Below the pieces are notes generated by a model. It ran no database searches. It had not been told where the DNA came from and worked only from the letters and a program-made list of their open reading frames with translations. Below are positions 1 through 62,890 of a stretch of 64,000 nucleotides of DNA, in pieces. This DNA comes from Marsupella aquatica. Taxonomy: Eukaryota > Plantae > Marchantiophyta. Position numbers and translations under genes: made by a program. Where the stretch lies: contig OZ316898.1 in NCBI GenBank assembly GCA_973895155.1, forward strand, positions 14,290,330 through 14,354,329, written 5' to 3'. Each line of letters starts with the position of its first letter. Position 1 is the first letter of the stretch.

Positions 1-530
1 ACCCCCCCATCACCTGCGACGTTTTCATGCCTAGACCCCCATACTTATTAAGTTGAAATTTTTTTTTCCTCCCTCTTTCTTTCTTCTAAGAGTCTAAAAT
101 CCAAATTGTATTGCCCCTATAATTTGTGAAGTAAAGTGTCACATATCAATATAAAATGCCTAGAAAGAAAAGATAAGTCTATGTCAGTACCTTGTGAAGT
201 CGTATGTCAGACATGGCACGCCCTGCAACAGTTCTTGCACCTTTGTCGACCTTAAACTTTGATCATTTCAATGCATCATTTATATTGTGTACCTAAAAGG
301 TCATCCCAATATAAACCTTACGTGCATAAGTGGGATGGCCTTTAAGGTCACAACATAAATAATCCATTCCACCCATTGATCACCAATCCCATGCTCCATC
401 CATACTCCATTTAAAACTTATGTTGAGAGATGTAACATGTGACGGAGGGGAATTGAACCCCTAATTGAGAAAGGATCTCAAGTTGCCAATCCGTCACCCC
501 CTATCCTATCCCACTACACCCACTAATATT

Positions 531-610
531 AACAAAATAAAACATATATACAGACTCTCAAAAACTAAACAACAAAATAAAACATATATACAGACTCTCA
601 AAAACTAAAC
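531..610. repeat. 40-bp tandem duplication downstream of the transposase
   Basis: AACAAAATAAAACATATATACAGACTCTCAAAAACTAAAC occurs twice in tandem. Confidence 0.9.
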
Positions 611-623
611 AGTAACATGATAT

Positions 624-3600
624 TCATACCATTGTTTGAAGATACTGATCCAAAGCACGTCTATCTATTGGATCCAACACATAGATACGATCCATAACCC
701 CTTCTTTCATGGTTAAACTAACACTAGCAATGACCATTTCAATATCCATCCATTTCAAATCAGTGGTATCATATCTGAATTCACTTTTGCTCTTACCAAT
801 AGGACTATACCAATTTAACAACAGTTCACAAATGTTACCTGATTGCCCTGCAAGTGGAGTTGGCCTATCCATCAAATCAATTGGTGACCGACAATTGCCC
901 CACCTACTGCCATACTTCTGTCTCATTTGGACAATCCGACCCAACCAAAAATATTTCTTACCTGCTGAGATTGCCTCCACCACAACCTTATTCTTTCCTC
1001 CCTTTCTTTTTCCAGATCTAGTACTTGGAGCAGGACTATCATCAGACTCAAATGCAATTGCACAATCAGTGCCAACATCAACAAAACATGAGTTAGGATT
1101 GACTTCTTGCACTTTTCTCTTGCCAGTACTATAGTATAGCACTTGTTTCACCCTTGTCAGCCTATCTTTTGACAAATGCGGATTTCCTACCAACTGGCTT
1201 ACCAGAGTGGATTTGTAAATCACCTTGCCTTCATAAGTAACAGTAGGCACTACCTTGGTACGATTCTGTACATTAGTTACAGCATGGACAACTGATCCAA
1301 ACACATGCCGAACTTCATGACCTAATGTCTCAAGCTCATCTGAGGGGTCTACATCAAACTGTATATCATCTCTGTGTACATCATCTGAATGCATCTCAGG
1401 AACAACAATGGGATCTGGTTCTGTTAACCATGCATCTATTCTATTCAGATCATCCTCAGGATCTTCCAATTCATGAAAATCTCCAGTTGGGCGAGGACCT
1501 ATGTCTGGTGGTTGGTGCTCTACTTGCTCCTCAGAATCATTGCAAACAATTGCTTCCTTCAGAACCACCTCTAGTGGCCAGGTCTCACTTTCCACAACCC
1601 AAGGACATGTCCACCATCTCTTTCTAGCTGCTGGTAAGGAACTTCGTGGAGACATCTGCAATTGATGCATAAGATCCTTAGCAGCAACAAAACCTTCTTT
1701 AAGGGCTGCAACCACTAATTCATTAGTCTCAATGAGAGAATAGTCAAGTAGATTTGGTGCTTCCTCCCCTTCCCCTATAGGATGAATCTTCCCCCATACA
1801 TGATCTTGTTTCTTATGTGAACGACCTATCTTCAAGCCTTCTGGTCCATATTCTAGGGCAGCAAGCCGGTTCAGTCCAACAGCACTATCCAATAGAGAGC
1901 CAAAATCATAATTCCGCTCATGGCCACTCATGCCTCCTACCTTGCTAAAGAAAATCTCACAACAATCTGAACCTAGCAAGTGGAAGGGAACACCTAGATG
2001 TGGGAACTTATCTCGAAAGGCACAAATTAACAGCACAATGAAATGACATGACATGTTAACATCATGAAAAGCCTGAATAGACATCATGTCTTTCTCAGTG
2101 TGTGCTGCAAAGTTCCCACCCACTGAATGGTCACCAAACCTCAACCACAATCTCCACAAACGTAGAAAGAATGAAACCTTGGATGCTAACACAATACGGG
2201 ACCTCAAATCATGAACTGGAGAAAAGAAAATATCTAAGTAATCTGCACAAATCTCCAAGTACAACTGAGTTCCTAAACTTCGTTCATGTTGTACATCTCT
2301 CCTCTCATACATATCTTTCAGACATTGCTGCACTCTTCTTGCTGCTATTCGTTGTGGACCTGCCCAATTCTGCCGGTCAGTCCTATTCACATCATCCCAA
2401 GCCATGCCATGTTCATGAATTGGATAATGATTGTAGACATTAGCTACATAAGATAAAGATGCATGTTGATCTCCTAGCACCAGTAAAGAAGACACTCTGT
2501 CTAAGGGGTTTATCATCTTTTTCCCATTATGAGGTTGGTCTTGGTCACCAAAGCCATACAAATCTCCATTTGGTAGAATTGAAACAGAGTATGTCCACCC
2601 TTCCCACCCAACTCCGTACCTTGGGTATGATCCATTCTGCCCTCTGTAATCTTCCAGCATCAGCTTTCGGCGACGTGCATCACCATCACTAGCATGTCCA
2701 AGCAAAGGGCCTACCATAGCTCTACAATATTCATCCCAAAAAGCCTTTAACTGGACCCAATGCTCTCGTACCCAAGAAGCTGTGAACTTATTACAAGTTG
2801 GAAGTGCACACACAGCCAATTTAGGTAAGGACTCATGCAGAGGATTCACAATCACAACTCGGGCATACATGCACTTGGGGCATTGTTCAAATGTACTTAC
2901 AATTTTATCATACCCCTCATCACCTTCACCAACTAGAATTTCCAAACCATAGGAGCATACATGCTGCTCTGAAGGTCCACAGAAACCAATGAGAGTATCA
3001 TACTTTGCCTCCCACCTGAAACACAGACATGCAATTTTTCAATATCACAGCAATTCCAGCCAAGTGCTACTTGTAAAGTCATTAAAAAAACAATTGGAAA
3101 AATGTCCAGTTCCAATTACCTAGGGCGTTCTTTGATCCTTGTTTCATCCTCAGCAAAGATAACAGGCACATCCCCCTCAATGCCCAATGAGTGCTTTGCA
3201 GCAGACAACACTCTAGCAATCTCCTGAAAGGTTTCCTTCCGTAACCCGGTTCGAAAAGGTGTGAGTTTTGCTCTATCACGTTTTAGGGTCACAAGGCTAG
3301 GGGCTGTCAAGTTTCGTGCAAAACAATGAGCAACTTGACGGCCCCCAAATTGGAACATAGCCTGAGCAATAGCTCGAGTCCTATTACTGTAACGATTACC
3401 TTTTGGCTTCCTGCCTAAATTGCGAGCTACATCCTTCAAGAAATCCCACAAACCCTCCTTACCACCAAATGCACCATTCCTGTGTCCATTCAAAATACTC
3501 CTAAGAAACAATCTCAAATCCTTCCTGTCTGCTGCAACTCCTAACAACTCCTCTAGTTTTCGTTTCCTGGTGCTCAAGGCACATACTTTCTGAGCCTGCA

Positions 3601-5200
3601 AAGCTAACAACCAACGCTCTTTTCGTCGCACAGAGTTCAGGTTGTGCACTTGATCTCTTAACTCTGTGTTGGTCAAATAATCCAAACGTATACCACCAGC
3701 AGTGGTTCGGCTCCCTCTGTGGACTACTGCTTCCGCTTCCCTGTGCACCCGTCCACGAAAATCATCTTCTAGTGTTATAGAATCACATTCACTACAAGTT
3801 AGATTTTCAAATCCTCCTCCATTCTGTGATAACCTCAAGCAATCCTTGTGTCTAAAACAGCCTGCTATACTCACAACACTCTCTCTACTTGGATGGAAAA
3901 CATCCAAGCAACAACTTGGCTCACAATGCCATGTAATTCCCCCAGACTGATCATCTAAAATGCCAGAAATATCATAAGATATACCCTTCCATAACAGTCG
4001 AGGCACACCTCTCTCTACCCATAATCCCCAGCAAAGCAAACTCAGACCAAGATCAACAGATTCACACACACCTGAACCTGAACCTGAACTGCTGCCTGTC
4101 CGGGACCCATCATCTTTAAAGAACTTCAAAATCCCGCTCTGACCAGGATGTAGGTCCCTAGAATCAGTCCTCTTTGGCCTGCCCCTCTTCCCAGACCTCA
4201 AGGCAAGCATTTTTGTGTCATGCCTAGTCTCCAATGCATCCAAGTGATCTCGACTCACTAAGTGTGTCCTCAAATTGGGCTCCAAGGTAAGCTTCTTGGG
4301 GCACAAGTCAGTGTGAAGCATTCCACAGACAGTACATCGAACCTTAAACAGGAAAGACCTGTTTACATACTCAGGAGTACTGGGATCAGGAACAATAGAG
4401 AATAGTTTGCCATCATCCCCAAGCTCAGCATTCAATCGTTGAACTATCTCAACACCTACTTTGATGGCGTCTGCATGATCATATTCTGGCTTCTCAGAGA
4501 TGTCTGCTACCTGAACCAAAGTAGAAGGAATGCCCCTTCTCCGACAATAGTTATCCTTGTGCTTATTGAAGACCAAGTGTTTGGTCTTAAAATTACTAAA
4601 GCAATTGGAGATGGATTTAGGGTTCTGAGAGTTGTCTGCATTGCCATAAGTTTCCCTACATTCAAGACACTCCAGATGCCCTCGAACATCTGTCCCCTCA
4701 TCCCAGGTACGAATTCTCCAATTGTGATCACCATAACCCTTCTTATGTACCCATTTCTCTAACCTCATCCACTCATCTTTCCATAGCTTTGATGGGACAT
4801 CTCCCATCAATTGTGACTCAAAAGAAGCCCTTACAGGGGAGGGTGCTAGTGCCGTTGGCCCCAGTTGTGGTGTCCCAGTATTTGGACCCAATGATGCAGG
4901 AGTGCAAGGATGACAGGGTACTGGTGGGATCCTCCCACCATCTCCAAGTTCTTGTTGTACAACAATAACTCTTCCATCCAGCTCAGACAGATCAATTAAT
5001 TTCTCATGTACAAGTTTCACTCGACCAGGAAGTCTCTCATCCCAAAAATCAAAGTCAAAGTCTAGAGTAGAGGCAATACGAGCCCTAAAATCATGTAGGG
5101 TGTGTCCTTCTTTGAATGACAAAACACAAATTGGTAAATCAGCCTTGTCATCCCCAACTTTGCGTATTAATTTAACAGAGTTGGGTTTAGGGGCTGCCAT
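624..5200 (-). CDS. P-element/THAP9-like DDE transposase, 2 exons (5200-3120, 3015-624), 1490 aa, apparently intact
   Basis: A GT..AG intron at 3119-3016 (104 bp) joins the 694-aa and 773-aa ORFs in frame, giving VIFAEDETRIKERPR-WEAKYDTLIGFCG. P-type motifs follow in order: DET, ASDGD, QDQPHNGKK..N (D-x2-H), DRQN, LGSDCCEIFFS. The N-terminal half has C2H2-like fingers (CLEC..H..H, CTVC..H..H). Confidence 0.85.
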
Positions 5201-5695
5201 TGCAATACAAATCTAGAACATGCATAGCACCATTGCTTTTGGAGTTGATAACAGAAAGACCTGCACAAATACATTTGAAATACACACAAGGGAAACACAT
5301 TAGGATCTTCAAGAGATGCAATGACAACATACACATTCTCATGTAATGTACATAATGTCAGCATACATTTAACAATAGAAGTGCTAATAGGCCAAAACAC
5401 TTTATAATGCAATCCATCATACATGCAAATGTATTCAGTGAAAATCATGATATACCGCTAAAGTTGGATAAAATATCTTTGGACAAAATATCCTTTTCGC
5501 CTGCTTTTCTAACAATTCCCGAAGTTTAGTGCTTCTGCTCATCAAAATGCAGCACTATTAGTGACCTTAATTATGACAAAATGTCAACACTAATAAAATT
5601 GGGTACTACCACCCATGATGCACCTTAAGTATGTGCCTTGCTCATACCCCACTAAGACGTTGAAACCTAAGTAATAGGTTTGTTCATTATTCAGA

Positions 5696-6370
5696 TCATT
5701 GGAGCCATGAAATGTGGTCCCTGATTGGAGTCTTGAGGTGTGGATCAATAGGATGACGGGGGCAATAAAACATCTGTCGCTGTTGTCCATGTGCTTCATG
5801 GTCCCAGATGTCCCTATCATGAGCGAACCCTTTGCTTTTGATCATCTGGAGACAATCTGTATGCCAGGCATTTGGACATCGTAGACATTGTACCATGTTC
5901 TTGACCATCTGACCCTCAAGACTCTGATAACATGTCACACATGTATGCAGTGGGCAGGACTTTGCATCAGCTACCAAACACCCAAAGCAATAAAATCGTA
6001 CACAAAAACGATCAGAGCATTTTCGCACAATTGTAGGTGACGGTCCCACAGTGCGGCACCCATAACACATGGCCTGGTCCTGGTTACAATTTGGGCAAAA
6101 CCATGGCTTCCCTCCATGATGGAGGGGAAGGACTACACAGGGGCAAGAGTCATTAGGGGCTTCATCTCCAACCACATAATGAAATTGCCTGTGACATGGC
6201 CCATCACAAATTACCAACTTCCCACCATGCTCACAAATTGCACAAACATGAGGGCTAGTTTGTAGAATCTCTTGCTCAGAGAACAACGGAATACGCAATA
6301 CCTCTTCCAAAGAGGCTCCTCTGTCAGAGGACTGTGTTGCTTTCTTTATGTTTGAAGTCCTTGTCGGCAT
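5696..6370 (-). CDS. EDM2-like composite (tandem) PHD-finger protein, 224 aa, transposon cargo
   Basis: Motifs CAICEHGGKLVICDGPCHRQFH, WFCPNC..CYGC, CPLHTCVTC, QCLRCPNAWHTDCL and YCPRHPIDPHLKTPIRDHI follow the order and spacing of the EDM2/NSD-type composite PHD region. Confidence 0.8.
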   Translation of the reverse strand: MPTRTSNIKKATQSSDRGASLEEVLRIPLFSEQEILQTSPHVCAICEHGGKLVICDGPCHRQFHYVVGDEAPNDSCPCVVLPLHHGGKPWFCPNCNQDQAMCYGCRTVGPSPTIVRKCSDRFCVRFYCFGCLVADAKSCPLHTCVTCYQSLEGQMVKNMVQCLRCPNAWHTDCLQMIKSKGFAHDRDIWDHEAHGQQRQMFYCPRHPIDPHLKTPIRDHISWLQ

Positions 6371-6686
6371 GGTTCAACTGCAATCATCACAAAGCACATC
6401 ACATATGAGGGGGACATGATGATAGTGAGCAATCCATAGACAAAGATAAGGTTAATCATAGCACCTGCTCCAATGATCTGCAAACCTCCCTCCCAGATGA
6501 AGTCAACTACACAGTGCAACCTGAACACCCACCAACCAAGACATACATAAATACAATGCCAGCTTGCAAAACTTTGCCACATAATGGGAATGAAAAATAT
6601 TCTCATATATCATGGATGGTACAATTGCAGCCTTGCAAACAAAGGCCTAGTCATATATGAACAACGCATCCATGTACTATCAAGGA

Positions 6687-7085
6687 CTACAATGTCAAGC
6701 ATCCATGGGTTGTAACCTTAGCTTGATCTGATATACTATCTGGGGCTACAATATCAAGCTCAGTTGAATGTGGAATACTATCAGGGACTACAATGTCAAG
6801 CGTGTCCGGGATGACAATCTTGCGTAAAAGACACTCATTTTGAGGCCAAATGGTTGGCCTTATACAAGAGCACTTCCAACGACGTGTGACAACTTTGCCA
6901 TGCTTTCCCATGTATGTCCTAGTAACAAGCCTTCCACGCATTTTCAAGCAGAAGCAATGGAACCATTCAAAATTCCCATCACCAACCCTGCACTTGACAC
7001 AAGGTTCACACCAGCAGCATTCATCTGGATGCTGCAGAAGGAGCTTCTCATAATTCGCTTCTAATGTAATGCCCAATATAGCCAT
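6687..7085 (-). CDS. Small Cys-rich protein, possible degenerate ING-type PHD finger
   Basis: CCWCEPCVKC...FEWFHCFCL...RWKCSC resembles the EWFH-x2-C...W-x-C signature of PHD fingers. Confidence 0.4.
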   Translation of the reverse strand: MAILGITLEANYEKLLLQHPDECCWCEPCVKCRVGDGNFEWFHCFCLKMRGRLVTRTYMGKHGKVVTRRWKCSCIRPTIWPQNECLLRKIVIPDTLDIVVPDSIPHSTELDIVAPDSISDQAKVTTHGCLTL

Positions 7086-8319
7086 GGCACTATTTTTTTA
7101 TACTCGGTGAATGGCCAGACGATTAGACGTGCAATGACAGGCAACTTACAATTCACTAGGTACACTATGTGTTCTAGCAAACTGCTTCACCGCAAGTGTT
7201 GGTGCTCACTGCTGCAAGCGCTGATGACAACCTCTACAATTCCTTTTGCAACCTGTGAACAAAATTGAAACCACCATTCAATTTCTAAGTTTCAAAAACT
7301 TCCCATTACATGAAGACAACCAATTGGCCATGCATGTTACTACAGCAATAAAATAATAACCCAATCGCTCAACAGACCTGAATAGCTAACCTGAATAGGA
7401 TCAAGTTCAGAATCCAGAATGGTAATGCCCTTGCCCAGAAGCTTGAGAAACAAAAGAGAATTTAAAATCAAGCACGAGCGTCATCCACGTCTTGACCAGG
7501 CCCGCCACCCAGTATGGCTGGAGGCTGTGGTCCCCCCTGGCTGAGTAAACACTTAAAGAAGTCTTCTCTTCTAGATGACTTAAAGAAAATTGCAGGAACC
7601 AGCCAACGGGACACCAAGGCATGTAATAGAGAACCAGATTTGTGCGGGTGTGTGGGGGACGACAGAAGTCAAGTTACATGATTTTTTTCCTGGGGTCCAG
7701 CCCATGGATGGAGATCATGTAAGGTGGTCAATCATGGCAAGTGCAATCATTGGAGACCTGTACTCGCGGTTACTCTAACGATGCATCCAAAAAACATGTG
7801 CGTCAAGTCGTCGATGCGGACACAGAAGGAGAGATGAGTATGGACAACGTCGAGACAAATGACGACAATACTGAGCTAGTATTCGGCTGGGAAGTTGGAG
7901 CTGGATCTCAGCAGTGGCTCCAAACCTTATCTGCGAGGGCATGGCGAGCTCTGGAGGACAAAATACTCAAAGAGCTTATCGCCATTCACGGAGCTCAGAA
8001 CAGGAATTTTATAGTTGAAAAGCTAAACGGGCAGATCAGGTGCTTCCTCGTCTATGACCGCTACCAGATCGACTCTAGGTGTGCCATGCGTGATAGATTT
8101 GGGCGTCAAATAGTAGCAAGCAAGCAAGTACGATCGTCAAAGTAGGCAGCGCCTACCTCCCGATTGAGCAACGCAGCAATGCAGCTCCAATCCTGGCACT
8201 CCGGTTTGAGATATCGCAACACTCCCTGCAGTAGCCACCTCCCGTTTCAGCAAGCTAGCAGCTCCCGTTTTAGAAAGCAGCAATGCAACACTCTCGACAC
8301 CCACCTCCCGGAGCGCAAC

Positions 8320-9180
8320 ACTCTTGCTCGATCCTTCACTCCCGGGTTCACTTCAAGCAGCAGCGCAGCTACAAAGTCTCGCTCTCCCCTTCACTCCCGG
8401 GTTCACTTCAAGCAGCAGCGCAGCTGCAAAGTGTCGCTCTCCCCTTCACTCTAATCAGCACACGCAACTGAGAAGTCTCGCTCTCTCCTTCACTCTAATC
8501 AGCGCACGCAACTGAGAAGTCTCGCTCTCCCCTTCACTCTAAGCAGCAGCGCAGCTGAGATGTCTCGCTCTCCCCTTCACTCTAAACAGCAGCGCAGCCA
8601 GGAACTCTTGGTCGATCCTTCACTTCAAGCAGCAACGGCAACAGCACAGCCGAGAGCGCAACACTCTCGCTCTCCCCTTCACTCCAAGTAGCAGCGCTTC
8701 ACTCGATCCTTCGCTCGATCCTTCGCCGAGAACTCTCGCTCTCCCCTTCACTCTCGCTCTCCCCTTCACTCCTTCGCTCGATCCTTCGCCGAGAACTCTT
8801 GCTTGATCTTTCACTCCAGCCGCAGCAGCAACGCAGCTCGATCCTTCTCTGAGAAATCTTGCTTGATCCTTCACTCCAGCCGCAGCAGCAACGCAGCTCG
8901 ATCCTTCACTCCAGCCGCAGCTCGATCCTTCACTCCAGCCGCAGCTCGATCCTTCACTCCAGCCGCAGCTCGATCCTTCACTCCAGCCGCAGCAGCAACG
9001 CAGCTCGATCCTTCACTCCAGCCGCAGCAGCAGTGCAGTCGAGAGCACAACAGGAGTCGATCCTTCACTCCAGCAACAGTGTAGTCGAGAGCACACTCTC
9101 GCTCGATCCAACCTTCACTCCAAGTGCAGTCGAGAGCACACTCTCGCTCGATCCGACCTTCACTCCAAGCAGGAGCACAA
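8320..9180. repeat. Subterminal minisatellite array (core GCTCGATCCTTCACTCCAGCCGCA, 24 bp, plus related 40-60 bp units)
   Basis: Directly visible tandem units built on (C)CTTCACTC and GCAGCAGC motifs. Confidence 0.9.
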
Positions 9181-10019
9181 CTGGTTTAGACCCCGTTTAG
9201 GCCATTTGCTGCAAGGTACAAACAAAAGAGACTCTGTTGAGGCAAAGAGCGGGTGGGGCCAAAGGGATAGTGGAGGGAAACGACACGGGAGGGACTGACA
9301 AGGGCCAATTGAGGTAAACGAGACACGTTAAACAGAAAAATTTCAAACTTAATCCCGGTCAAACCCTAAACGTGAGTCCCCATAAAACCAGATCATTCTC
9401 AAATTCTTGCCATGTTAACATCTTAGAAAAATTAGGAAAATATATTGGGAATGTTATGTGTGCCACGTGTACCAATGACATAGTGACACGTGTACTTTAC
9501 ATAGTCCGACACAAAGACCCCCTAACTTCTTTGTATGCCTTCCATCTACAAAGTCAAAAATATTAATATCCCTATTATTCTTACAAGTTGTCCAACATAT
9601 AAAGTTGGCCCTATTGTTCTTACACAAATCTTCTTAAGTCTTCCGAGAAACCCAATTAACGGACCCTATACTTCGTCGCACGTGATATGAGATTTTCGCG
9701 GAGTGAGACCCCCGAGAGTTTGCTTGACCTTTCGCTTGCTACTTTCTTCTGATGTATTATTTTGCTGACATTTGAATAGGAGGAAGGCGATGCTCTGAAG
9801 AAACAGTGGGAGGACGTTGTTGCCTGGCTAAATGTTTGGATTGAGCTCATTGTGGAGGTCACAATTGTCTGTACACATTGCGAAGGTCTGTATATGTACA
9901 TTGCTATTTTGTTGCATTCATAATCATTGCTTCAATTTGTAATGTGCTTCAACATCGTTGCCTTAATGTTTGTTGGTGCCTCACATTCATTCCTGCATTC
10001 ATTCCGTCCCGGTTGTGGA

Positions 10020-10470: not shown

Positions 10471-10962
10471 CAAGTTCAAGAGCCTGTCATTCAAGACGTT
10501 CGCTACTGCTAGTCAACTTTGAGCAGTGAAGGTTAGTGGTCTATTGCCTAATATTTTCACGCTGTGGTGCGTCCCATGGCTCCCTAAACCCAAGAAACCC
10601 CCCAGCTCAAGCCGATTCCCGCAGGTTTCGTGCTTGGCGAGGCCGTTTCCGCGGCTTAGCGGCATGGGACGCTGCTAACCTTCTACTACTACTATTAACA
10701 TTTTACACACATATACTGGACAGATCCTTCATCGGGTCATGAGATACGTAGCCGGCCTAATATAGGCCTTCCCCTGTCTTCCCCTGTCTTCTTGTTAGGT
10801 ATGTTTGGATTCCGCCGCCGGAATGATCCCCAATAGGCTTGGTTAAGCCGCTAAGACCTCTCTCAGCTCGACACATCCAACTCTCACTCCCCTGCTTACT
10901 TTCCTTCCTTCTGTTGATGTGGGCACTCTTCACACAAGTTAATGCGACACACAAATAGCAAA

Positions 10963-10985
10963 ATGACTCATTCTGACTGAGTCAT
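10963..10985. promoter_or_regulatory. Inverted pair of TGACTCA (GCN4/AP-1-like) motifs in the LTR
   Basis: ATGACTCA-ttctgac-TGAGTCAT is present in all four LTR copies, ~200 bp upstream (minus strand) of a TATA-like CCTATATTAGG near 10760. Confidence 0.4.
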
Positions 10986-15162: not shown

Positions 15163-15175
15163 TAGCTCCCCACTT
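15163..15175 (-). other. Polypurine tract (AAGTGGGGAGCTA)
   Basis: Purine-rich run abutting the TG of the 3' LTR. It lies inside the integrase reading frame, whose stop codon (15151-15153) falls within the LTR. Confidence 0.75.
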
Positions 15176-21317: not shown

Positions 21318-21363
21318 TACCTACGCTTCCGTTCTAACTTCATATCTCACGGCTTAAGAAATG

Positions 21364-21382: not shown

Positions 21383-21386
21383 AAAA

Positions 21387-35729: not shown

Positions 35730-35738
35730 GGACTGCTC

Positions 35739-53190: not shown

Positions 53191-53937
53191 ATACCATGGA
53201 AAGTCCCAAGTACGACAAAAAGAAAGATACTATGGGATATGACAACACTTGAGAGGCGCCGTTTTGTCAATAACTGAATACTGACCAGGATGCAGACCGT
53301 AGGATGTGTGAGATGCAGGTCAGACGTGAGCCTGTGATGGTGACGCTATGGTGCTTCGCACGGGGTATGATCGGGGACGGCACGGGTCACGAATATCATT
53401 GGATTCTGGGTCGGACGTGACATAATGGATGGGTATTACCAGGTTACTTGCGAACGTGATAAAATGTACGTTGGGGTAGTGAAAGGGCGGTGCCACCGAT
53501 CGGAGATAGAATCTTTGTTGTGAGATCTACTACTGAAACTGCAGTGACTAAATGATGCATGCCACTGCGCACATGAACGCCCTATGAGGAATTCCTTATA
53601 AGCTTTGGGCAATGGTGCGAGCTCCTGAGCTCCAGTCTTTGATTGTGTAGGTTTCGTAGATCTTTGTGGCTGACAAGTCTGCCATTGGATAACACTTGGG
53701 GTGTTAGCGACGGAAGCAAGTATTGACGAGCGCGGGGTGACGTTGGAGGATTGGTGAAAGTATGGTTCGTTGACATGATCATCCAGCGCCGGTCGCATTG
53801 TTGATGCAGAGCGACGAGGATATCACAGATCGTATGTACCCCTCTTTCACTCAACTCCTTTGGTTCTTAATTCCGCATGAAGTATATTGATCGATTGTTA
53901 GAATGGCGCAACTAAGGCCTGCTTTGTTTGTAAAGTC

Positions 53938-56900
53938 GTGACGGAGACGATTTGGAAGTCATGCTCGGGGAGGGTAATACGGCATTATCTAGGGATGGCC
54001 CCTGCAGACCATAATTTAGCTAGAAAAGCTGGTTTGGTTCCATGTTTTGAACTCGACTGGCCCAGAGTTGCAATTCCTGCTGTAAAGGAGTTCGTAGTAG
54101 GGTATGATCAAGGTCGAAACTGTGTGTCATTTCGGGGTGCAACTCACACATTCAACAGAGAGGTATTGCGAGCTGCATTTGCTTTTCCGTCTGGAGAATG
54201 GGCCCGATTTAAACCTGGGTTGGTCCAAGGTCAACTAAATTCCATGTTTTCTGCCAAGACGAAAGGCAACCCATACAGTCTAGACAAAATCACTGCGCCA
54301 TATATGCAGTGGTGTGGGATAATCAAGGCGATTTCTGAATTGCTCTCAGGCAAGAGCAAACCCACTCAGGTCACCTCAAAAGACATGTGGGTATACTGGG
54401 TGTATTGGTGGGATACGATTAGGGTACGTGATCGTTTTAGAGGAGCTGAAACTCCCGTGGTGAAGCCCGATTGGGCACATTTGGTGTACGATAATCTGAT
54501 GAGTGAGATCCTCAGGTTAAAGTCACACCTATCGAAGAATGGTGTCGTAGACAAACGACTTCCTTGCTACTGTGGCACTGCTATAACGCAGATTCTTGTA
54601 CACTACGGGTATTCGCTGGAGGAGCTTATGGTCGAACAACACGAAGATGATCATGAGGAGGACGACAAGGAGAAAGGGGACAATGGCTCACAAGAGGACG
54701 AGGAAGGGGAGGCTGGCTCAAAAGAGGACAAGGACAGGGACAGTGGCTCATAGGAGGACGAGGAAGGGGATGACGGATCACGAGAGGACGAGGAAGGAGA
54801 AGATGGCTCACGAGAGGACGAGGAAGGGGATGGTGCGTCTGACGGTGAGGGGCAGCCATCAGAGGTTGCGCCCCAATTCTCCAGGGATGAACAGAAATGT
54901 CCTCAGGGTGAGCACAAATCGCCGCCCTCTGTGCCAGAGTGCATGCGTGTTCTATCACAGCACATACGTGCGCTAGAGGTTGATCTTGCAGAAAAATCGG
55001 ACATGCTACGAGAAGCAGTGGAGAATCATAAAAAATTGGTCCTCAATTTGATGAAAGAAAACGACAGACAGAGAGTCCGCATATTAGAATTGGAAAGGCA
55101 GGTTGGGTTGCATTTAGAACAAGTTGGCAGTGAGACATCGAGTGGAGAAGGTGAGAGCGGAGGTGACGAGAGATGTTGTGAGGTTCTGGTAGGTCTTGGT
55201 GCCAGGGTACATGCAGGTTATGATGCAGAGGCATCACAATGTAGCCCAATTTCAGAGTTACCGCCAGTTTCTGGTGTTCCAGCTATAGTAGAGGTACCAG
55301 CAGCAGCACCAGCAGAAGCAGGTACTTTCCCATTTTATTATCCTGGTGTTCCAGCTATAGTAGAGGTACCAGTAGCAGCACTAGCAGAAGCAGGTACTTT
55401 CCCAATTCATTATCCTACTTCAAAGATACAGCAAGAGGAGTCTATGTCGAGTGGAGGTGACTCACCAGTTTTGGTAGAGTTACAGGCAGCCGCACCACCA
55501 GTACTGGCAGAGGTACCGGCATCAGAAGAAGAGATGTCACTTTTAGAAGGAGAGGCACCAAATGCTGCACCAACATCAAAAGTAGAGGTCTCAGCTATAG
55601 AGGAGGACAAATCGTCGGGTGCAATTGCATCAGAAGTACCAGGGTCACCTCCGATTTCTGTTCTATTTCATGTTCCAACTAAGAGTCCGGGATGGGAGGC
55701 TAGGACGAGTCACATTTCACAACAACCAAATTTGCCTCGTGCTTCAAAGAGAGGGCGAGAGGACTCTATTCCGAGTGGCAGTCACTCACCAGCGAAGAGG
55801 AGGGCTATCGAAGTGGAGGAAGAGGAAGAGGTAGAGGAAGAAGAAGAAGAAGAAGAAGATGAAGATGAAGTGGAGGATGACGAGCATTCAGAACAAGACA
55901 TTCACTGGGAAGAGTGTGCCACAGAGAGTGGAAAGGTTAGCAATTTTTTTCCTTTGTTGTGTGATTACTGTTTTTTCAGAAACAATGTTCAAGCATATCT
56001 AACTTGGCTGTGAGCGGGATCCGCAGATTGATATCCAAGGGTCTCACTTGACAGAGGAGGCATGCCCTCCACCTGGTACAATGACTACAGCTCTATATCC
56101 ACACCAACGGATTGGTCTTGCATGGATGTTGGAACACGAATCCGGAAAAAGCTCTCCAATTGGTGGGATGTTGGCGGATGACCAGGTACAAAAGCCCCCA
56201 AATTAAGCCGAAGTCGCACTCATTATTTTCATTCAGCGGGATACTTTGGGGGTATTTTTGGAGTATGTTAGGGGTACGCGCGCACCTTGTCTGCAAGTGA
56301 GTGGGTCCCTGACCGTTTTCTTGGCTTGGATTTTTTTAGGGAATGGGGAAAACCATGCATGTCAAAGCGCTATTTCTCGCGAATCGCCCTCATAAGTGTG
56401 GGCCAACTCTAGTTGTTTGTCCAGCCAGCGTGGTGATTCAATGGGGCCAAGAAATAGCTGCAAGGACCTCCAAGATAGCAAAAGTGAAGGTCCTCCTCTA
56501 CCACAACAAGAGGAATAAAGACATCAACTTTATTTCAAGCCATGACGTGGTTGTCACTACGTACTCAATCATGACAGGGGAGTCTCCCATTGCTCCAAAG
56601 ACGTCCAGCGTGCCAAAAGGGAGTATGAAGAGACCTGTAAAAAAACCTAGACTTGTAGGTCCACTGTTTAAGATTAGTTGGCTTAGAGTAGTCCTGGATG
56701 AGTGTCATGTCATGAAAAATAAAACTAGTCAAAATTTCAAGGCCTCGCGTTGTCTCAAGGCAGAGAGGAGGTGGTGCCTAAGCGGTACACCCATACAGAA
56801 CGAGGCTTCTGATCTGTTTCCTTACTTCAGTTTTCTGAGGTATTATCCTCTAGGAGAGTGGAATTAATTCTCGCAGTTAAAGAAGCTGCTGAAGACAAGG

Positions 56901-58719
56901 CCAAAGATAGCGAATGGCATCCTCTTGAAACACTTGGTTGCGATTGCGCTCAGGAGAGACAAAAGTAAGCGTGCATGCATATATCATGGTAGAGTTCACT
57001 TTGTTTAATCCCAAGCCTGATTTCTTTATCAATTGTGCATTTACCCTGCCACTGTGCTTACATGCAGGCATACTCCCACTGCCCCCTAAGATGATCGAGG
57101 TGCAAATTGTTGAATGGAGAACACAGCAAGAACGAAACGCTTATTTTGATCAGGAGGAAAAGAGTAAGGAGTTATACAAGGTACGTAAGGCTCTTAATAA
57201 TCCCCAATGTTGAAGACGTATGAGAGTTCAATTTGATCCCTTGAAGGTGTCTGTTCGGTGGCAATTAATGTGCCTATAATGTTGTAGGAATTCCGTGACG
57301 CCGAAAGAGGTGCCTTATCGAATGTGTTGAGCGTTCTGCTCCGGTTGCGACAATTTGCAGTGCACCCAAAACTTCCTTCCTTATGTAAAATTCGCGAAGA
57401 GGAGATCGGGAACAAAGTGCAAAGAACGCCCCTTAGTGAGCCTCAACGAGCCCGACTCGTGTCAGAGTTTCAGCAATTGAAGATTGGAAGTGCTTGCGTG
57501 GACTGCAAGGTGACTACAGTCACTCTATGTATGGGGTATGATTGGGGTATTATTGGGGTATGATTGAGGTATTTCAATTAACGTGCTTTGCCTAACAATT
57601 TCTGCACGCACTCACTTTAACGGTTGGATTGTGCAGGGGGGCTTGATTGGAAGTCCATTTCAGATTTCTGGCTATGGCCATGTATACTGTGGCATTTGTG
57701 CAATAGACCGGGAAGCTGGAACCTGCAAATCGGCAAAATGTTCAAAATACGTGACAGCCCAGGTCCTATACAGGCCAGCTGATTTGAGGCTAGTGAATGG
57801 TGGTGCGGAGTCAAAAGGGAAGGCGCGAAGAGAATATGATGTCCGACACCCACCTTCTCCAAAATTTGATGCAGTCTTGGAATACCTGAAGTCGATTCCG
57901 CTGGACACTACAAGACAGGGCAGCAGCGAAAGCTTTGTGCCCAGGCAGAAGGCTCTTGTTTTCTCACAATGGACTTCGTGTCTCAACATGCTTGAGCCAC
58001 ACATTCTGAAGGCTGGTCTAAAGTTCACAAGGATTGATGGAGGAATGAATTCCAATGTCAGAGAACAAGCCTTGAATGATTTCAAGACGACCCCAGAGGT
58101 ACAACCGTCATTATCCGTGCAGATCGGTGTCTGTATTTGTTCAAAGGGTAAACTCTTCATATTCTAATTAAACTGTTTCTACTCATTTCATGCAGATCAG
58201 CATTATCCTCTTGTCCTTGATGGCAACGAACACAGGACTCAACATCACTGAGGCTACACATGTTCTTATGGTAGACGGGTGGTGGAATCCCACGGTAGAG
58301 GACCAGGCCGTCGATCGGTCACATCGTATAGGGCAAACAAGGCCGGTGAAAGTTGTCAGGTTTATCGCCAAAGATTCGATTGAGTTGAAGATTTTGGAGC
58401 TGCAGGTAAGATTAGAAGTGCTTGCGTGGACTGCAAGGTGAATAAAGTCACTCTGTGTATGGGGTATTATTGGGGTATTTCAGTTCGCGTGCTTTGCCTA
58501 ACAATTCCTGCACGCACTCACTAGTAATGATGAATTACAAATTCCATATATGTGGTCTCTAATTGTACGCATGTTGCATGTTTTGTGCAGAACAAAAAAC
58601 GAGTGATGATCAGGGACATCATGTATGGCTGTGCAACCGGGAAAAAAGATAACATGGAACAAAATCTGGAGTTCATTCTGGGAGAGAATCGGCAGCAGAG
58701 GTTCAATGCATCAGAGTAG
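53938..58719 (+). pseudogene. Fusion gene: PMD/Transposase_32-like domain + acidic/coiled-coil linker + SNF2-RING-helicase (RAD5/RIS1/CHR27-28-like)
   Basis: 53938-55935 is one frame with a single TAG at 54751. Phase-0 introns 55936-56026 and 56186-56339 give LYPHQRIGLAWM..GGMLADDQ-GMGKT. Later motifs: VVLDECH, WCLSGTPIQN, LLRLRQ, split RING, KALVFSQWT, WWNPTVEDQAVDRSHRIGQ. TAA at 56865. Confidence 0.85.
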
Positions 58720-59313
58720 CTAGATGAGTTTTAGCTAAGGCTCTCTTCGGTGCTTGAGTCAGTTAGGCAGTGACACTCTTACTGTTCGTTTACTTGTCAG
58801 TGCCACTCTCGTTTCCTCCCGTTGTGATTTTAGTGCAGCGGGACAACGATGAGACTAGGAGGACAGAGCCTGAGTGGGTCTTTCCTTGCCACATATGTAC
58901 CTGTTCGAGCCTCCTGCGGGAGCATTATGAATTGAACACTTCATCTTTGAATCATGTCCACTGTTTCTCATGTCCACTGTTTCTTTGGTATTCTTTCTTG
59001 TGTTCTTTTGTGTGTGTTTAGGGTTTAGGTTATGCACTTGCAAGACACACCGAATGATTACCCTAGGGACATAGGTAATTTACAAGCATAGCAGCCCGTC
59101 CACTACAAGGAGATTTGGTTCCCTACTAAATATGGGACAAATACCTTACCATGAATCGCTTTGATAAGAGGGGAATGAATTCCCAACTCATCTTCTGGAA
59201 ATTACCCCCAATAGTAAGGGGGCGGGGAGCATGAGGTACGTTGGGGTTAATTTCCCTACTTACCCCATATATTCCCCTCTTTCAAACTCCTAACCTTGCA
59301 GATCTTCCTTGTG

Positions 59314-60690
59314 CAGAAGGGCTTTGGTGAGCACAAGTGGAGAGTGCGGACGTGGGATGAGGGAGAGGAGTGTCGAGGTCATCTAGAATATCAGTGATTT
59401 CACTAACTCTGGACATTCTTTTGTCCAATTTTTGATCATGAAATTTCCAACACCAATTATTCTTTTCCCTATAACTTGAGTTCTAGAGTACATTGTATGT
59501 TATGCATAGATTTATTAGGAGTAGCTTGTTAAGCTTCATATATCTTGATCAAAAAATTTCAAATATGATATTGATAAGTCTCATATTTATCTACAATTTA
59601 GTTGATTTCAATTTCCAAAAAGTTGTTATGAAATTTCCAAATCGTTAATAATATTCCAGAATTAGTGAAACTATTGATGAATGCTTAGAGTGTAGGAAGA
59701 CTTATGGGAATGCAACCAATTCACAGGTGCTCAAGTCCATTGCAAATTTCTTTAGCAATTTCAAGACAAAGCACATGACCAACCCTAAACACAAGGACAA
59801 TTGGTGGAAGCAAAGGGGTATACCTGGGGCTTTGGTAACGGCTGCTGACACTATACAACAGCCATTGTTTGATCATAGTATGCAAATAGGGGCTGGTGTG
59901 GAAATAGTGGGAAAGTTGAATGCAGAGGTAGGTGGGCCCATGGTAGAAGTGTTCTCTATCACACCATCTCCCACTAATCCAACATTTGCACAGAGGTCAT
60001 TCCTGTTTAAGGTCAGATGCATGTATAGTCTGTGGCAAGCTACATACTGACATGTGCCCTAAGAAATCCAATTTGGAACACAATTTAAGGCAACACCTTG
60101 TCTGTCGGGATCATATGGATGCACTTGAGAACGTCGTCACCAGTACCCAGGCTGCACTGAGGGCAGGGAAGAAGGGGAGACCAAGGAAGCCTGATGCTCA
60201 TGATCTGTTTCCATCTCAAAATTCTATTCTGAATTTCTTTAGAGAGGACAGCTCTGCTGCAGGGAGCAGTTTAGGCAGAGGTGGGTTGTATTCCTCCATT
60301 GAGCCAAGTTTAAGTTTGCTTTGTTGGGGTTTGTGGGAGTCAGAGGTGAAGTGGACAAGGGATTCTATGGCTGTGAAAGGCATACTTGATGATCAAGAGG
60401 GAGGAAATGTGTCAGTGGGATTGTGACCGTACATCCTGTGCTGAGGTTTTCAATGTAACTAGTCAGTTAGTTGTTGGTATATAGGGTGTTTTAGGCACAA
60501 GCAATGTCACAAGGTGTCCATTAATGGAGGTGGTTTTGAAAACCTCACTTGCACTCTATGTGATTCTATAAAATGTGAAGATGATTTTTGTGGCAGGGTG
60601 CATAGGGAAGCGGAAGCATTAGTGCAAAGAGGAGACATGACTACACAGGGTGGGATGAGGTTGGCATACAAAACCGAACTGAGGGAACAC
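59314..60690 (+). pseudogene. P-like transposase copy 2, continuation after the CACTA insertion; truncated at ~60690
   Basis: KGFGEHKWRVRTWDEG..HLE/CLECRKTYGN, FSNFKTKH, SFLFKVRC, LSLLCWGLW and GGGFENLTC align with copy 1. Confidence 0.9.
59390..59678. mobile_element. 289-bp MITE with ~28-bp TIRs and a 4-bp TSD
   Basis: Ends ATCAGTGATTTCACTAACTCTGGA / TCCAGAATTAGTGAAACTATTGAT; TSD GAAT at 59386-59389 and 59679-59682; removal restores HLE-CLEC. Confidence 0.88.
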
Positions 60691-61719
60691 ATGGCAACAA
60701 ATAGATCTCTCATCAGCTCATCATAAGATCAAGATGGCCCAGCCCCATCTCCTCCATCACCCGATCCTCCCTCCCCCACCATCTCTCCTCCTCCCCAATT
60801 GCTCTTCTTGTCTCAGCCTTACACAAAAAGCCACAAAGAACATTGTCAAAAGGAAGGCCCAAAGCGTGGGTTTTCGCACCTGCATCGGGACTTCAGGTTT
60901 TCAATAACTCCTGCAAAGTCCGATCAATCCCGCATCGGAATGTCCGATGCATAACGTATGGGATCTACAATTGGACATTGCGTTACGGGTTGTATTGGAC
61001 CCCTCATAGAATTCATTGGACCTCTTCAATGGCTTTCCCAAGTGATTTGTGATGCTTCTCCTTTGGGTTTTATATATATGGGAAACTTAGTTTTAAGGCT
61101 TAAATAATAAGGGGGTTTGAATTGGCCTGCTGTGTTGGGTAACTTGCAATATGAGTTTGGCTTGGATATGGGGTTTGGTCGGGTTTAGGGTATTGAAATT
61201 TTATGGCCGTGCTTGAATTCAGGTTTTGTAGGGCCATATATATACCTCAATGGGCTGGCGACCGTGTGCTGGGTCCTCTTGCAAGTTCTTTTTTGTGGAT
61301 TCAATTTTGGGGTTTGTACTTGACTTCAAATTTGTTTGGGGGAATATATGCTTGGTTATCCCTGACTCAAAACTTTTGGCTCATTTCTTCTCGCTCCCAC
61401 ATCCGCTTGCTCCCGAGCAGTCCACACTCTGTATGCATATTTGAATTTCCCAAGTCAGACTAGAAAAATAGGTGAGAGTCATATATCTTTTTGGAAATGA
61501 CAAGGATGAATCCCAAATGGGATATGACGTATCCGGTTTGGGATTCAATCTTCAAAAATCCAGTTTTGGCATGACAAAATATGAGAAAATGATGTTGGAT
61601 GCAAAGTGGGATACCGGATATGAAGCTCTTGGTTGAAAAATGCAGGAAATTTTAAAAATGGGATAAAGTGTTTAGGGTTTAGGGCTCCACTAGTGAATCA
61701 CATTCATTCAAAATCAAAA

Positions 61720-62890
61720 GTCACTTCCAAAGAGCTTTTTGATGTTGGTAACAGTCATCATGCATGACAAGACTACGTTGAAGCTGGATGCGGTGAAGGC
61801 TACAGTTATTCTTGCATAATGGAGCAAGCAACATCTATCTATTTGTGATGATGAGTGTCTTGTCTTAGTGGTTAGAGGTAGATCAACTGAGCGTATTGCG
61901 GATCAATCTAGGTCTAGATTTCATAACAAATCTAAAACTAAGTCTTGTGGTAAGAAGGTTCAATGTTGACATTGCCATGAGAAGGGCCACACCAAGTGGT
62001 CTTGCCCTTCTTTGACCAAGCAGAAGCGTCTAGGTACTTCTGATGGTGCATCTTCATCTTTGACTGGCATAGTGATTGCTAATCATGAGGATGGTGCTAA
62101 AGCGCTATGTATTGGTGTTGTTAATTGTGTGTATGACGATAAATGGATGTTGGATTTGGGTTCCTCTTATCACGTGTGTCCAACGTGTCTTATAAGTTTC
62201 AGTTCAAGTTCCTACCATTCTCATGAGATTCTTGAGTATGTACATTTGGATGTTTGGGGTCGAGCGCTGGAGCCGTCATTAGGTGGAGCCAAATATTTTA
62301 TGACGTTTGTAGATGATTTACTCTTGAATGTGTTGGTTGTACTACATGCTCGGGGGTTTCACTTCCACAAAAATGGCACATCACGTGCGACAAAGTATAA
62401 GGTCAATTTATTGGTTTGAAGGGAAGACTTAAGAATTTTTGTAGAAGAACAATAGGGTCCTTTAAATTCAATTTTGAGACTTATAAGAACATTAGGGTCT
62501 TTCTAACCAAATTTTTGGAATATTCCAAGAATATTCCAACTTTATAGGGATTGAAAAATAATATTTTTTTTCTTACATTTTAGGGGGTCCGAGGCCTAAA
62601 AACGTCACAGGGGATGGGGAGACATCCATATAGTGAGACCCCCGAGACTACATGATGGAGAAGTCTCAAGTATTTGAGATCTTCAAGGAGTGGAAAGCCA
62701 TGGTGGAGCTACAAATTGAGAAGGAGTTGAAGTGTGTTTGGTCAGATACGGTGGCGAGTATAAGTCCAATGAGTTTGACCAATTTGGTCAGGACCTTGGC
62801 CTCAAGTGTTGTTACATTGTACCGGAGACCCCGCAACAGAATGGAGTGGCACAACGGTTGAATCAGACATTACTGGAGGAGGCTCACTTT
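61720..62890 (+). pseudogene. Ty1/Copia remnant (gag knuckle, protease, integrase)
   Basis: HCHEKGHTKWSCP, WMLDLGSSYHVC, LEYVHLDVWG..SLGGAKYFMTFVDD, KSQVFEIFKEWKAMVE, GGEY, TPQQNGVAQRLNQTL. Confidence 0.9.
62349..62646. mobile_element. 298-bp MITE of the P-like family
   Basis: TIRs CTCGGGGGTTTCAC / GTGAGACCCCCGAG; 8-bp TSD ACTACATG at 62341-62348 and 62647-62654; both ends are homologous to the ends of the element at 1-9716. Confidence 0.93.

What the first reader, a model, noticed from the sequence alone, without database searches (positions are those of the whole stretch)
1..62654. Three unrelated TE classes in one nest each carry chromatin-related accessory genes
Seen nesting: P-like copy 2 was hit by the CACTA and a MITE; the CACTA was hit by two Gypsy insertions; Copia was hit by the P-MITE. 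Several stops are C-to-T-type changes relative to sister copies, consistent with methylation. Cargo: EDM2-like PHD (P-like), PMD-like coiled coil (Gypsy), PMD-like/SNF2-RING (CACTA). Inference: convergent acquisition of silencing-pathway modules as counter-defence or heterochromatin-targeting tools.
Basis: inference. Interest (0 to 1): 0.7.

Follow-up and report, generated by a model that had tools for sequence, protein, structure and literature searches.

The report
Nested transposons carrying own chromatin genes
Three kinds of plant jumping genes are stacked inside one another here and each carries an extra gene (a histone-reader-type finger, a chromatin-motor-type enzyme fused to a likely DNA-binding domain, and a likely relative of that domain placed wholly inside a retrotransposon's end repeat), which likely help the elements manage their own chromatin, though no function is shown.

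Summary
The nesting is real: termini and target-site duplications check out. All three cargo genes exist and look like family-level accessory genes, not chance captures.

(1) The Gypsy gene (about 1,100-1,190 codons) lies wholly INSIDE the 4.6-kb LTR, and the two 'Gypsy insertions' in the CACTA are solo LTRs that carry it.
(2) The CACTA 'PMD-like' and SNF2-RING parts splice in frame into one predicted 1,317-codon gene whose ATPase best matches CHR27/CHR28 (FRG1/2).
(3) The Gypsy and CACTA 'PMD-like' domains are probably homologous, so not independent captures, and neither passes Pfam PMD.

New here: the CACTA carries GGGTAT pairs at 11-bp spacing in introns and spacers (17 inside, 0 in the other 41.7 kb), candidate self-target sites.

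Individual copies decay by CG/CHG deamination; the LTR gene shows no significant selection since insertion. Anti-silencing or targeting function is inferred only; no RNA or chromatin data were available. Chromatin-type cargo on transposons is a known theme (PMD-coiled-coil ORFs of Tat/Ogre, VANC, TET/JBP). The in-LTR gene and the PMD-like::SNF2 fusion were not found in ten literature searches.

The parts
1..9716 (-). P-like DNA transposon, copy 1; right terminus 9703-9716, left terminus just outside the window
   Evidence: Ends match the 8-bp-TSD MITE at 62349-62645
624..5200 (-). Intact P-like transposase, 1,490 aa, one predicted 104-bp intron (3119-3016); D(2)H motif
   Evidence: Splice model has no internal stop and matches the intronless relative in L001 at the junction; no Pfam or PDB hit
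5696..6373 (-). Intact stand-alone PHD-cluster gene (224 aa), NSD/EDM2 type, last finger C4HC2H
   Evidence: Pfam PHDvar_NSD 5.8e-8; NSD2 E 4e-6
10563..25509 (-). Full-length Ty3/gypsy element, TSD CACGC; LTRs 10563-15162 and 21387-25509 (the latter with a net 489-bp in-frame deletion); PBS and PPT present
11472..14870 (-). Accessory ORF inside the LTR (1,132 codons stop to stop in this copy; the frame opens at LTR position 116 and ends at 3691 of 4600): PMD-like domain about residues 190-420, coiled coil about 720-980, no transmembrane segment
15151..21320 (-). gag(+protease-like) ORF and overlapping pol ORF (RT, RNase H, integrase); one stop in pol; integrase ends 12 bp inside the LTR; no additional RNase H seen
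   Evidence: Pfam
26145..27773 (+). P-like copy 2, left piece: decayed PHD gene (26145-26873) and start of transposase
   Evidence: tblastn 35-39% identity to copy 1
27774..59313 (+). CACTA/EnSpm element, 22.3 kb without the two solo LTRs; TIR CACAAGGA.., TSD CAG; 158-bp subterminal tandem array 28125-28792
30478..35116 (-). Solo LTR carrying the accessory ORF (one premature stop), TSD ATATG
38404..43006 (+). Solo LTR carrying the accessory ORF (one premature stop), TSD CCCGC
49407..53044 (+). CACTA transposase (Tnp2/TnpD type), broken by a stop and an apparent frameshift in this copy
   Evidence: Transposase_21 E 6e-8; sequence
53902..58719 (+). Predicted 8-exon fusion gene, 1,317 codons, 2 internal stops: PMD-like domain + acidic/coiled-coil/low-complexity linker + Ris1(CHR27/28)-like SNF2 ATPase with degenerate RING
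   Evidence: 7 of 7 introns GT-AG and in frame; homologue search
28153..58478 (+). Dispersed GGGTAT-N5-GGGTAT pairs (11-bp period) at 28153-28774, 37050, 44253-44264, 50726-50748, 54389, 56250, 57534-57556, 58462
   Evidence: 17 pairs inside the CACTA, 0 outside; 8 loci against a best-of-all-motifs null maximum of 4 in 40 shuffles
59314..60693 (+). P-like copy 2, right piece: transposase N-terminal region, truncated before the catalytic core
   Evidence: 53-60% aa identity to copy 1
59386..59678 (.). 293-bp MITE in P-like copy 2 (ends uncertain by up to 4 bp)
   Evidence: Empty-site joints in 4 of 4 runs; inverted ends
61700..62932 (+). Copia-type relic (zinc knuckle, protease-like, integrase pieces)
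   Evidence: superfamily inferred from domain order
62349..62645 (.). P-type MITE, 8-bp TSD ACTACATG, many different flanks in contigs

Best explanation
The window is a methylation-scarred transposon nest in which three multi-copy element families each carry an extra gene, and these genes likely act as the elements' own chromatin regulators rather than being dead passengers. Shown: the anatomy, the nesting, the in-LTR position of the Gypsy gene, the domain content and the CG/CHG-biased decay. Predicted: one spliced PMD-like::SNF2-RING protein from the CACTA. Inferred mechanism: the CACTA's PMD-like domain would bind the element's own 11-bp-phased GGGTAT arrays and bring a Ris1-type ATPase motor to open or remodel chromatin on copies of the family (VANC-like logic with other parts). 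The Gypsy PMD-like/coiled-coil protein would be a nuclear regulator like the PMD-CC ORFs of Tat/Ogre, but encoded in the LTR so that solo LTRs keep it. The P-like PHD cluster would read histone marks for the transposase or for the element's transcription. The PMD-like domain likely moved between TE classes; SNF2 and PHD were likely captured long ago from host genes. Copies lose their genes by deamination after insertion, while selection acts on the transposing lineage.
For: Old, selected cargo: the SNF2 part is only 31% identical to Riccia CHR28 over 537 columns yet keeps Walker A, DExH, motif III and VI look-alikes and 7 in-frame GT-AG introns (motif names recalled). The PHD gene lies upstream of the transposase in two P-like families whose transposases are 53-60% identical; PHD dN 0.57 with synonymous sites saturated. 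The LTR ORF has 19 plausible relatives among 20 hits (one bacterial adhesin-type hit set aside), best 41% over 225 aa; two named ones are from the liverwort Calypogeia fissa. Family-level: in run X1 long contigs over the CACTA cargo have depth 198-248, like those over its transposase and spacers (165-207), against 41 for a junction contig; one contig links the SNF2 end to the right terminus. In X2 the PHD contig has depth 1,636 against 1,999-2,162 for transposase contigs. Contig depth is not a copy number and is used only as a rough pointer. Homology of the two PMD-like domains: a profile built without window sequences ranks the CACTA ORF first among non-LTR ORFs of 793 (E 0.004; 12.5 bits against a maximum of 3.2 among 1,000 shuffles); hhalign E 0.0014, probability 18%. 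Superfamily lead: Atlas neighbours of two Calypogeia relatives are PMD, DUF1985, Transposase_32 and ATHILA ORF-1 clusters. Self-target candidate.
Against: No function, expression or chromatin state is shown. Among the four LTR copies the ORF shows no significant purifying selection once the mutation spectrum is allowed for (33 of 82 differences synonymous against 33% expected, p 0.10; 4 stops against 3.7 expected), and every copy has a stop. PMD identity is below every bar: no PF10536 hit for the window ORFs or 20 of 20 search hits, Atlas scores under 0.9 and under the naming bar, AlphaFold model pLDDT 48. The one related P-like locus found elsewhere (L001) has no PHD match in the 1.2 kb upstream or 5.5 kb downstream. 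The SNF2 sits on a very long branch and the tree does not place it inside the CHR27/28 clade (quick tree). The RING has a ligand cysteine replaced in this copy. The GGGTAT arrays could be bound by a TnpA-type protein of the CACTA instead of the fusion.
Confidence: 0.55

Rival explanations
1. The genes are real accessory genes but serve transposition itself: the PHD cluster steers target choice, the SNF2-RING translocase clears nucleosomes or protein from ends or helps repair the excision break, and the PMD-like/coiled-coil protein helps nuclear import or particle handling.
For: Same conservation evidence as the best explanation. The best eukaryotic PDB match of the ATPase exon is the repair protein RAD5. 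Nested insertion into other TEs fits heterochromatin targeting. Reviews propose nuclear-import or regulatory roles for extra ORFs (PMC7264820).
Against: The GGGTAT pairs lie throughout introns and spacers, far from the ends where transposition happens, and keep one orientation whichever strand the local gene is on. The ATPase's best hits are CHR27/28, reported as needed for RdDM (PMC5452414 passage).
Confidence: 0.28
2. The cargo genes are sporadic host-gene captures decaying neutrally, and their chromatin flavour is coincidence.
For: All four LTR ORF copies and the CACTA gene carry stops; recent LTR differences fit neutrality; L001 lacks the PHD; no genome-wide baseline of cargo types was possible.
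Against: Deep divergence from host relatives with motifs and splice frames kept, the same PHD position in two diverged P-like families, diverged protein relatives of the LTR ORF and even contig cover of cargo and transposase do not fit recent Pack-type capture.
Confidence: 0.1
3. The LTR ORF is an env-like or structural protein unrelated to chromatin.
For: Long coiled coil; sense orientation directly after pol in the 3' LTR, where env-like ORFs lie in other lineages (PMC7264820).
Against: No hydrophobic segment (maximum 19-residue Kyte-Doolittle mean 0.82), basic NLS-like stretches present; nearest Atlas families are PMD/Transposase_32/ATHILA ORF-1.
Confidence: 0.07

Closest known systems
PMD-coiled-coil extra ORFs of Tat/Ogre Ty3/gypsy elements (PMC4408406 and PMC6317226, passages read; PMC7264820 parts 1-2 of 3 read)
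   Same: Sense extra ORF with a PMD-like domain followed by a coiled coil; LTR of about 5 kb as in Ogre; 5-bp TSD.
   Different: ORF lies wholly inside the LTR, so solo LTRs carry it; the published ones are in the internal region. No additional RNase H seen, so not Tat. Domain does not reach Pfam PMD. Relatives found are from a liverwort, whereas PMD is described from seed plants.
VANDAL21/VANC21 anti-silencing system (one passage in PMC8616336; binding to motifs in the element's non-coding regions is recalled, primary paper not read)
   Same: DNA transposon with an accessory gene and element-specific short motifs repeated in its non-coding DNA.
   Different: CACTA rather than Mutator; the candidate effector is a PMD-like::SNF2-RING fusion with no VANC similarity detected; no activity shown.
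FRG1/CHR27 and FRG2/CHR28 (Ris1 subfamily SNF2-RING; PMC5452414 passage)
   Same: Best hits of the ATPase exon; LADDQG Walker A variant; RING between the ATPase lobes.
   Different: 31-45% identity, long branch, fused to a PMD-like domain, and carried inside a transposon.
EDM2/NSD-type PHD cluster (PMC3776765 and PMC3632883, passages read)
   Same: Adjacent PHD fingers with the last one C4HC2H; Pfam NSD-type PHD hits.
   Different: 224-aa stand-alone ORF without the methyltransferase-like domain; no direct EDM2 hit was obtained.
Chromatin-enzyme cargo on EnSpm/Plavaka and other DNA transposons: TET/JBP in fungi (PMC12730594, passages), PAG1-3 in red algae (bioRxiv 10.1101/2025.02.11.637652, passages)
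   Same: Giant CMCT-clade elements with accessory chromatin genes that move between TE superfamilies.
   Different: Different cargo; neither text mentions SNF2 as TE cargo; this is a land-plant EnSpm-type element.
MMTV sag and HIV nef, ORFs in or overlapping an LTR (recalled, no call)
   Same: Protein gene in the terminal repeat.
   Different: About 1,100-1,190 codons, filling three quarters of a plant retrotransposon LTR.

Membership tests
Plant mobile domain (PF10536) | Pfam match above threshold | tested here: not met
   No hit for the LTR ORF, the CACTA ORF or 20 of 20 search hits
Plant mobile domain (PF10536) | Same fold as PMD/Transposase_32/ATHILA ORF-1 | tested here: inconclusive
   Atlas rows for relative P0014: TM by row 0.51-0.63 over 109-148 residues, all under the naming bar; P0011 features 0.76-0.82; own model pLDDT 48
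Tat/Ogre Ty3/gypsy | Additional (archaeal-type) RNase H domain | tested here: not met
   RNase H is followed directly by integrase; only RT_RNaseH families hit
Tat/Ogre Ty3/gypsy | Extra ORF in the internal region | tested here: not met
   Internal region holds only gag and pol; the extra ORF is in the LTR
Phygy/Selgy non-chromoviruses | Polyprotein spans nearly the whole internal region | tested here: met
   gag-pol 21320-15151 within internal region 15163-21386; criterion from PMC6317226
Phygy/Selgy non-chromoviruses | RT/RH/INT phylogeny against REXdb lineages | not testable with these tools
   No reference set available in the script box
EnSpm/CACTA | CAC..GTG termini with 3-bp TSD | tested here: met
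   27774 and 59313, TSD CAG; criterion in PMC12730594
EnSpm/CACTA | Tnp2-type transposase | tested here: met
   Transposase_21 E 6e-8, above the curated cut-off
P superfamily | 7-8-bp TSD | tested here: met
   8-bp TSD on the MITE that shares both ends with copy 1; copy 1's own TSD cannot be read, its left end is outside the window
P superfamily | DDE triad with D(2)H motif | tested here: met
   D-x2-H and candidate D, D, E conserved between the window and L001; motif named in PMC3698922; residue assignment by eye
P superfamily | Profile or structure match to P transposase; THAP domain | tested here: not met
   No Pfam or PDB hit for the window protein, L001 or their alignment; hence 'P-like'
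EDM2 | NSD-type PHD cluster with last finger C4HC2H | tested here: met
   pattern read from the translation; criterion in PMC3776765
EDM2 | Full-length protein with C-terminal methyltransferase-like domain | tested here: not met
   224-aa ORF; no longer homologue found among 89 candidates (weak evidence)
Ris1 subfamily (FRG1/CHR27, FRG2/CHR28) | Best similarity and LADDQG motif | tested here: met
   Named top hits mostly CHR27/28 among the 120 listed of 847; 105 of 120 share the DQ variant with the window
Ris1 subfamily (FRG1/CHR27, FRG2/CHR28) | Placement inside the clade in a tree | tested here: inconclusive
   Quick IQ-TREE on 27 of the 120 hits plus the window protein: long branch, unplaced; few outgroups
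VANC-type anti-silencing | Protein binds own-element motifs and lowers methylation in trans | not testable with these tools
   Only the motif arrays are shown

The most novel reading that the evidence does not exclude
A non-seed-plant CACTA family encodes a sequence-specific chromatin remodeller, built by fusing a TE-borne PMD-like DNA-binding domain to a captured RdDM-type SNF2-RING motor, that docks on helically phased GGGTAT arrays in its own introns to undo silencing. An abundant Gypsy family carries a homologous regulator inside its LTR, so that its many solo LTRs remain trans-acting regulator genes. The PMD-like domain would then be an old, class-crossing TE counter-silencing module that predates the seed-plant PMD family.
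Probability: 0.25. Interest if true: 0.85.

Novelty: new variant of a known kind. Interest (0 to 1): 0.62.

Why it matters
The function of TE-encoded PMD proteins is an open question; a counter-silencing role has been suggested (PMC8616336). The CACTA offers a direct test: a candidate binder, a motor and a candidate site (GGGTAT pairs, 11-bp period) in one element. A kilocodon gene inside an LTR means that solo-LTR formation, normally the way a host removes a retrotransposon's genes, leaves this gene in place; pipelines that scan only internal regions would miss it. A P-like element with an intact transposase and a histone-reader partner in a land plant is a possible tool and a model for target choice.

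Tried and rejected
No genome held: no survey of cargo per family, no intact sister copies.
Runs: one search listed 7 runs, no RNA holder listed; 4 of the 7 were laid, all contigs, so nothing on expression, transcription start or splicing.
Word-indexed homologue search found nothing for the LTR ORF or the PHD gene (longer proteins only). The single full HMMER search went to the LTR ORF, so the CACTA PMD-like domain and the PHD gene have no sensitive search of their own.
Atlas would not read window sequences or P0001; stored relatives P0011 and P0014 were used, so those hits are theirs.
AlphaFold models were poor (pLDDT 48 and 31); Foldseek on viral models gave no hit with E under 0.001; no PDB fold search was run. 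PDB sequence searches for the PMD-like profile, the P-like transposase and two small CACTA ORFs gave nothing.
Related-locus search: alignment A1 too variable; viral contigs none; the metagenome scan with the transposase gave 1 locus.
Raw pN/pS of 0.26-0.50 in the LTR ORF was rejected as evidence of selection after the context-aware null.
Env-like reading rejected (no transmembrane segment). No termini found for P-like copy 2. No dispersed phased motif above null in the P-like or Gypsy elements. First splice model had a frame slip, corrected. The careful tree did not finish; the quick tree is reported.
Literature: ten searches found no report of an ORF inside a plant LTR, a SNF2-carrying plant CACTA or a PHD-carrying plant P-like element; the library lacks most subscription papers and Repbase, no supplements were read (those of PMC6317226 could bear on in-LTR ORFs), and the primary VANC, FRG and PMD-DNA-motif papers were not read.
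Full report
ANATOMY. Self-comparison shows four copies of a 4.6-kb TG..CA repeat. Two bound a full Ty3/gypsy element (10563-25509, minus strand, TSD CACGC, PBS and PPT present) with gag and pol only in its 6.2-kb interior (Pfam). The other two (30478-35116, 38404-43006) have their own 5-bp TSDs and are solo LTRs. They sit in a CACTA element with CAC..GTG ends and TSD CAG (27774-59313), which interrupts the first transposase exon of P-like copy 2. A 293-bp MITE sits in the same exon. P-like copy 1 (1-9716) has an intact 1,490-aa transposase and an intact PHD gene 500 bp upstream. A MITE with the same ends and an 8-bp TSD splits a Copia-type relic. Public contigs join across the empty sites of the MITE (4 of 4 runs) and the CACTA (3 contigs in X2) and leave the P-MITE at exactly its ends with many different flanks. 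The host is not known; named relatives of the LTR protein are from a liverwort, so a non-seed plant is likely.

DECAY. Each LTR copy has a premature stop in the LTR ORF; 4 of 4 stop events are single C/T-type differences from the sisters. Among the three full-length copies C>T/G>A differences occur at 6.8% of CG, 3.0% of CHG and 0.8% of CHH sites, as expected from methylation-driven deamination. In the CACTA region, contigs differ from the window mostly as T>C and A>G (147 of 258 places in X1), so the window copy carries the decayed letters. With a context-aware null the LTR ORF differences fit neutrality (33 of 82 synonymous against 33% expected, p 0.10; 4 stops against 3.7).

GYPSY CARGO. 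The ORF runs from LTR position 116 to 3691 of 4600, in the sense of gag-pol, starting about 100 bp after the integrase stop, which itself lies 12 bp inside the LTR. It has an N-terminal block, a domain at about residues 190-420, a long heptad region (about 720-980) and no transmembrane segment. A full HMMER search gave 20 hits, best 41% over 225 aa; one (P0013) is a bacterial adhesin-type chance hit and was left out of the alignment. None hits Pfam PMD. Atlas neighbours of two Calypogeia relatives are PMD, DUF1985, Transposase_32 and ATHILA ORF-1 clusters, all below the tool's bars. So 'PMD-like' is a fair lead at superfamily level and not membership. PMD plus coiled coil is known from Tat/Ogre extra ORFs (PMC4408406, passages), but those lie in the internal region and in elements with an additional RNase H, which was not seen here. 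Summed contig depth over the LTR is roughly 4-5 times that over pol in three runs; this is not a copy number, but it agrees with solo LTRs being common (2 of 3 insertions in the window). Whether the ORF is in U3 or U5 is open.

CACTA CARGO. The PMD-like ORF (53902) and the SNF2 exons join through 7 of 7 GT-AG introns in frame to 1,317 codons with 2 internal stops; the start codon and the fusion junction are predictions. The ATPase exon's top hits are mostly CHR27/CHR28, named FRG1/FRG2 and required for methylation at some RdDM loci (PMC5452414, passage). It shares their LADDQG variant (105 of 120 listed hits) but is 31% identical to the Riccia protein and unplaced on a long branch. A profile of the Gypsy domain's relatives, built without window sequences, picks the CACTA N-terminal domain as the best non-LTR ORF of 793 (E 0.004; 12.5 bits against at most 3.2 in 1,000 shuffles), and hhalign aligns 172 columns (E 0.0014, probability 18%). 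The two domains are therefore probably homologous, which fits exchange between TE classes (as reported for PMD between Gypsy, genes and MULEs in PMC5418596, passages) better than convergent capture. In run X1 contigs over cargo, spacers and transposase have similar depth (165-248) against 41 at a junction contig.

A FEATURE NOT IN THE FINDING. GGGTAT pairs at 11-bp spacing (at most one mismatch) occur 17 times in the CACTA's own 22.3 kb, all on the plus strand, and never in the other 41.7 kb; other spacings of 7-15 give 0-2. Of 35 exact hexamers in the element, 29 are outside the 9.6 kb I scored as coding. They form 8 separate loci against a best-of-all-motifs maximum of 4 in 40 shuffles; two loci belong to a duplicated intron and one is a weak match in coding sequence. 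Orientation does not follow the local gene (37050 lies by a minus-strand ORF), so a DNA-level site is more likely than a splice signal. One helical turn of spacing suggests binding on one face of the helix (inference). The binder could be the fusion protein or a TnpA-type protein.

P-LIKE CARGO. The 224-aa gene holds NSD-type PHD fingers ending in C4HC2H, the EDM2/NSD1 signature (PMC3776765, passage). EDM2 alters H3K9me2 and CHG methylation of some transposons in both directions (PMC3632883, passages). A decayed copy lies at the same position in the diverged copy 2, with most ligands kept. The one outside relative, L001 (41% identical core, 1,517-aa single ORF), shows no PHD nearby, so the cargo is lineage-limited. 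P membership rests on the 8-bp TSD and D(2)H motif; no profile confirmed it.

MECHANISM AND VERDICT. Shown: structure, nesting, domain content, decay pattern, motif arrays. Inferred: family-level maintenance (about 0.85) and a role as self-directed chromatin regulators (overall 0.55), against transposition helpers (0.28), neutral captures (0.10) or an env-like role for the LTR gene (0.07). That three such families share one nest carries no weight without a genome baseline. Chromatin-type cargo on transposons, shared between superfamilies, is in print for fungi and red algae (PMC12730594; bioRxiv 10.1101/2025.02.11.637652; passages), and earlier unchecked notes of this scan report SNF2 on fungal Plavaka elements and small genes in solo LTRs of other kingdoms; I did not test those. 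What is unusual here is the kilocodon in-LTR gene and the PMD-like::Ris1-type fusion with phased own-element motifs; ten searches of the held library did not find them described. Also read: PMC12973397, PMC11963269, PMC7466625, PMC3698922, PMC8616336 (passages) and PMC6431247 (passages and section 7). Novelty: new variant of a known kind. Interest 0.62.

Noticed in passing
window 21387-25509 vs 38404-43006 and 10563-15162: The 5' LTR of the full element is closer to the inverted solo LTR (K2P 0.0066) than to its own 3' LTR (0.0103); 5 shared sites including one stop group them, against 1 site grouping the element's own pair. Gene conversion or template switching is possible; LTR-pair dating is unsafe here.
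   Followed up: partly
window 24561-24573: The 5' LTR has a net 489-bp in-frame deletion that removes most of the PMD-like domain.
   Followed up: partly
   Followed up: partly
window 57480-57616 and 58408-58522: Two introns of the SNF2 gene are copies of each other (78%), including sequence that encodes the first RING cysteines in one copy and is intronic in the other; both carry GGGTAT pairs.
   Followed up: partly
window 45600-46176, minus strand: ORF in the CACTA that by eye resembles the zinc-binding C-terminal OB fold of RPA1 (recalled); Pfam, PDB and a single-sequence fold did not confirm it.
   Followed up: partly
window 29300-38148, minus strand: Multi-exon gene or genes in the CACTA, split by the solo LTR, possibly the TnpA equivalent; starts with a SAM-like stretch and ends with a trihelix-like stretch by eye (recalled); unconfirmed.
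   Followed up: partly
window 6687-7097 minus; 8239-9169: P-like copy 1 has a further Cys-rich ORF without Pfam hit and about 900 bp of CpG-rich tandem repeats near its 5' end.
   Followed up: no
LTR positions 3692-4600: The non-coding 3' part of the LTR differs less between copies (0.2-1.0%) than the ORF part; TATA-like words lie near positions 95 and about 4,420.
   Followed up: no
window 47108-47564: 184-bp tandem repeat in the CACTA containing short CCCTAAA telomere-like runs.
   Followed up: no
window 9717-10562 and 25515-26145: The target of the full Gypsy element is unassigned sequence with about 110-bp repeats; no match to P-like copy 1.
   Followed up: partly
L001 1181-5731: Intact intronless 1,517-aa P-like transposase in a metagenome contig, no Pfam hit, no PHD neighbour.
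   Followed up: yes
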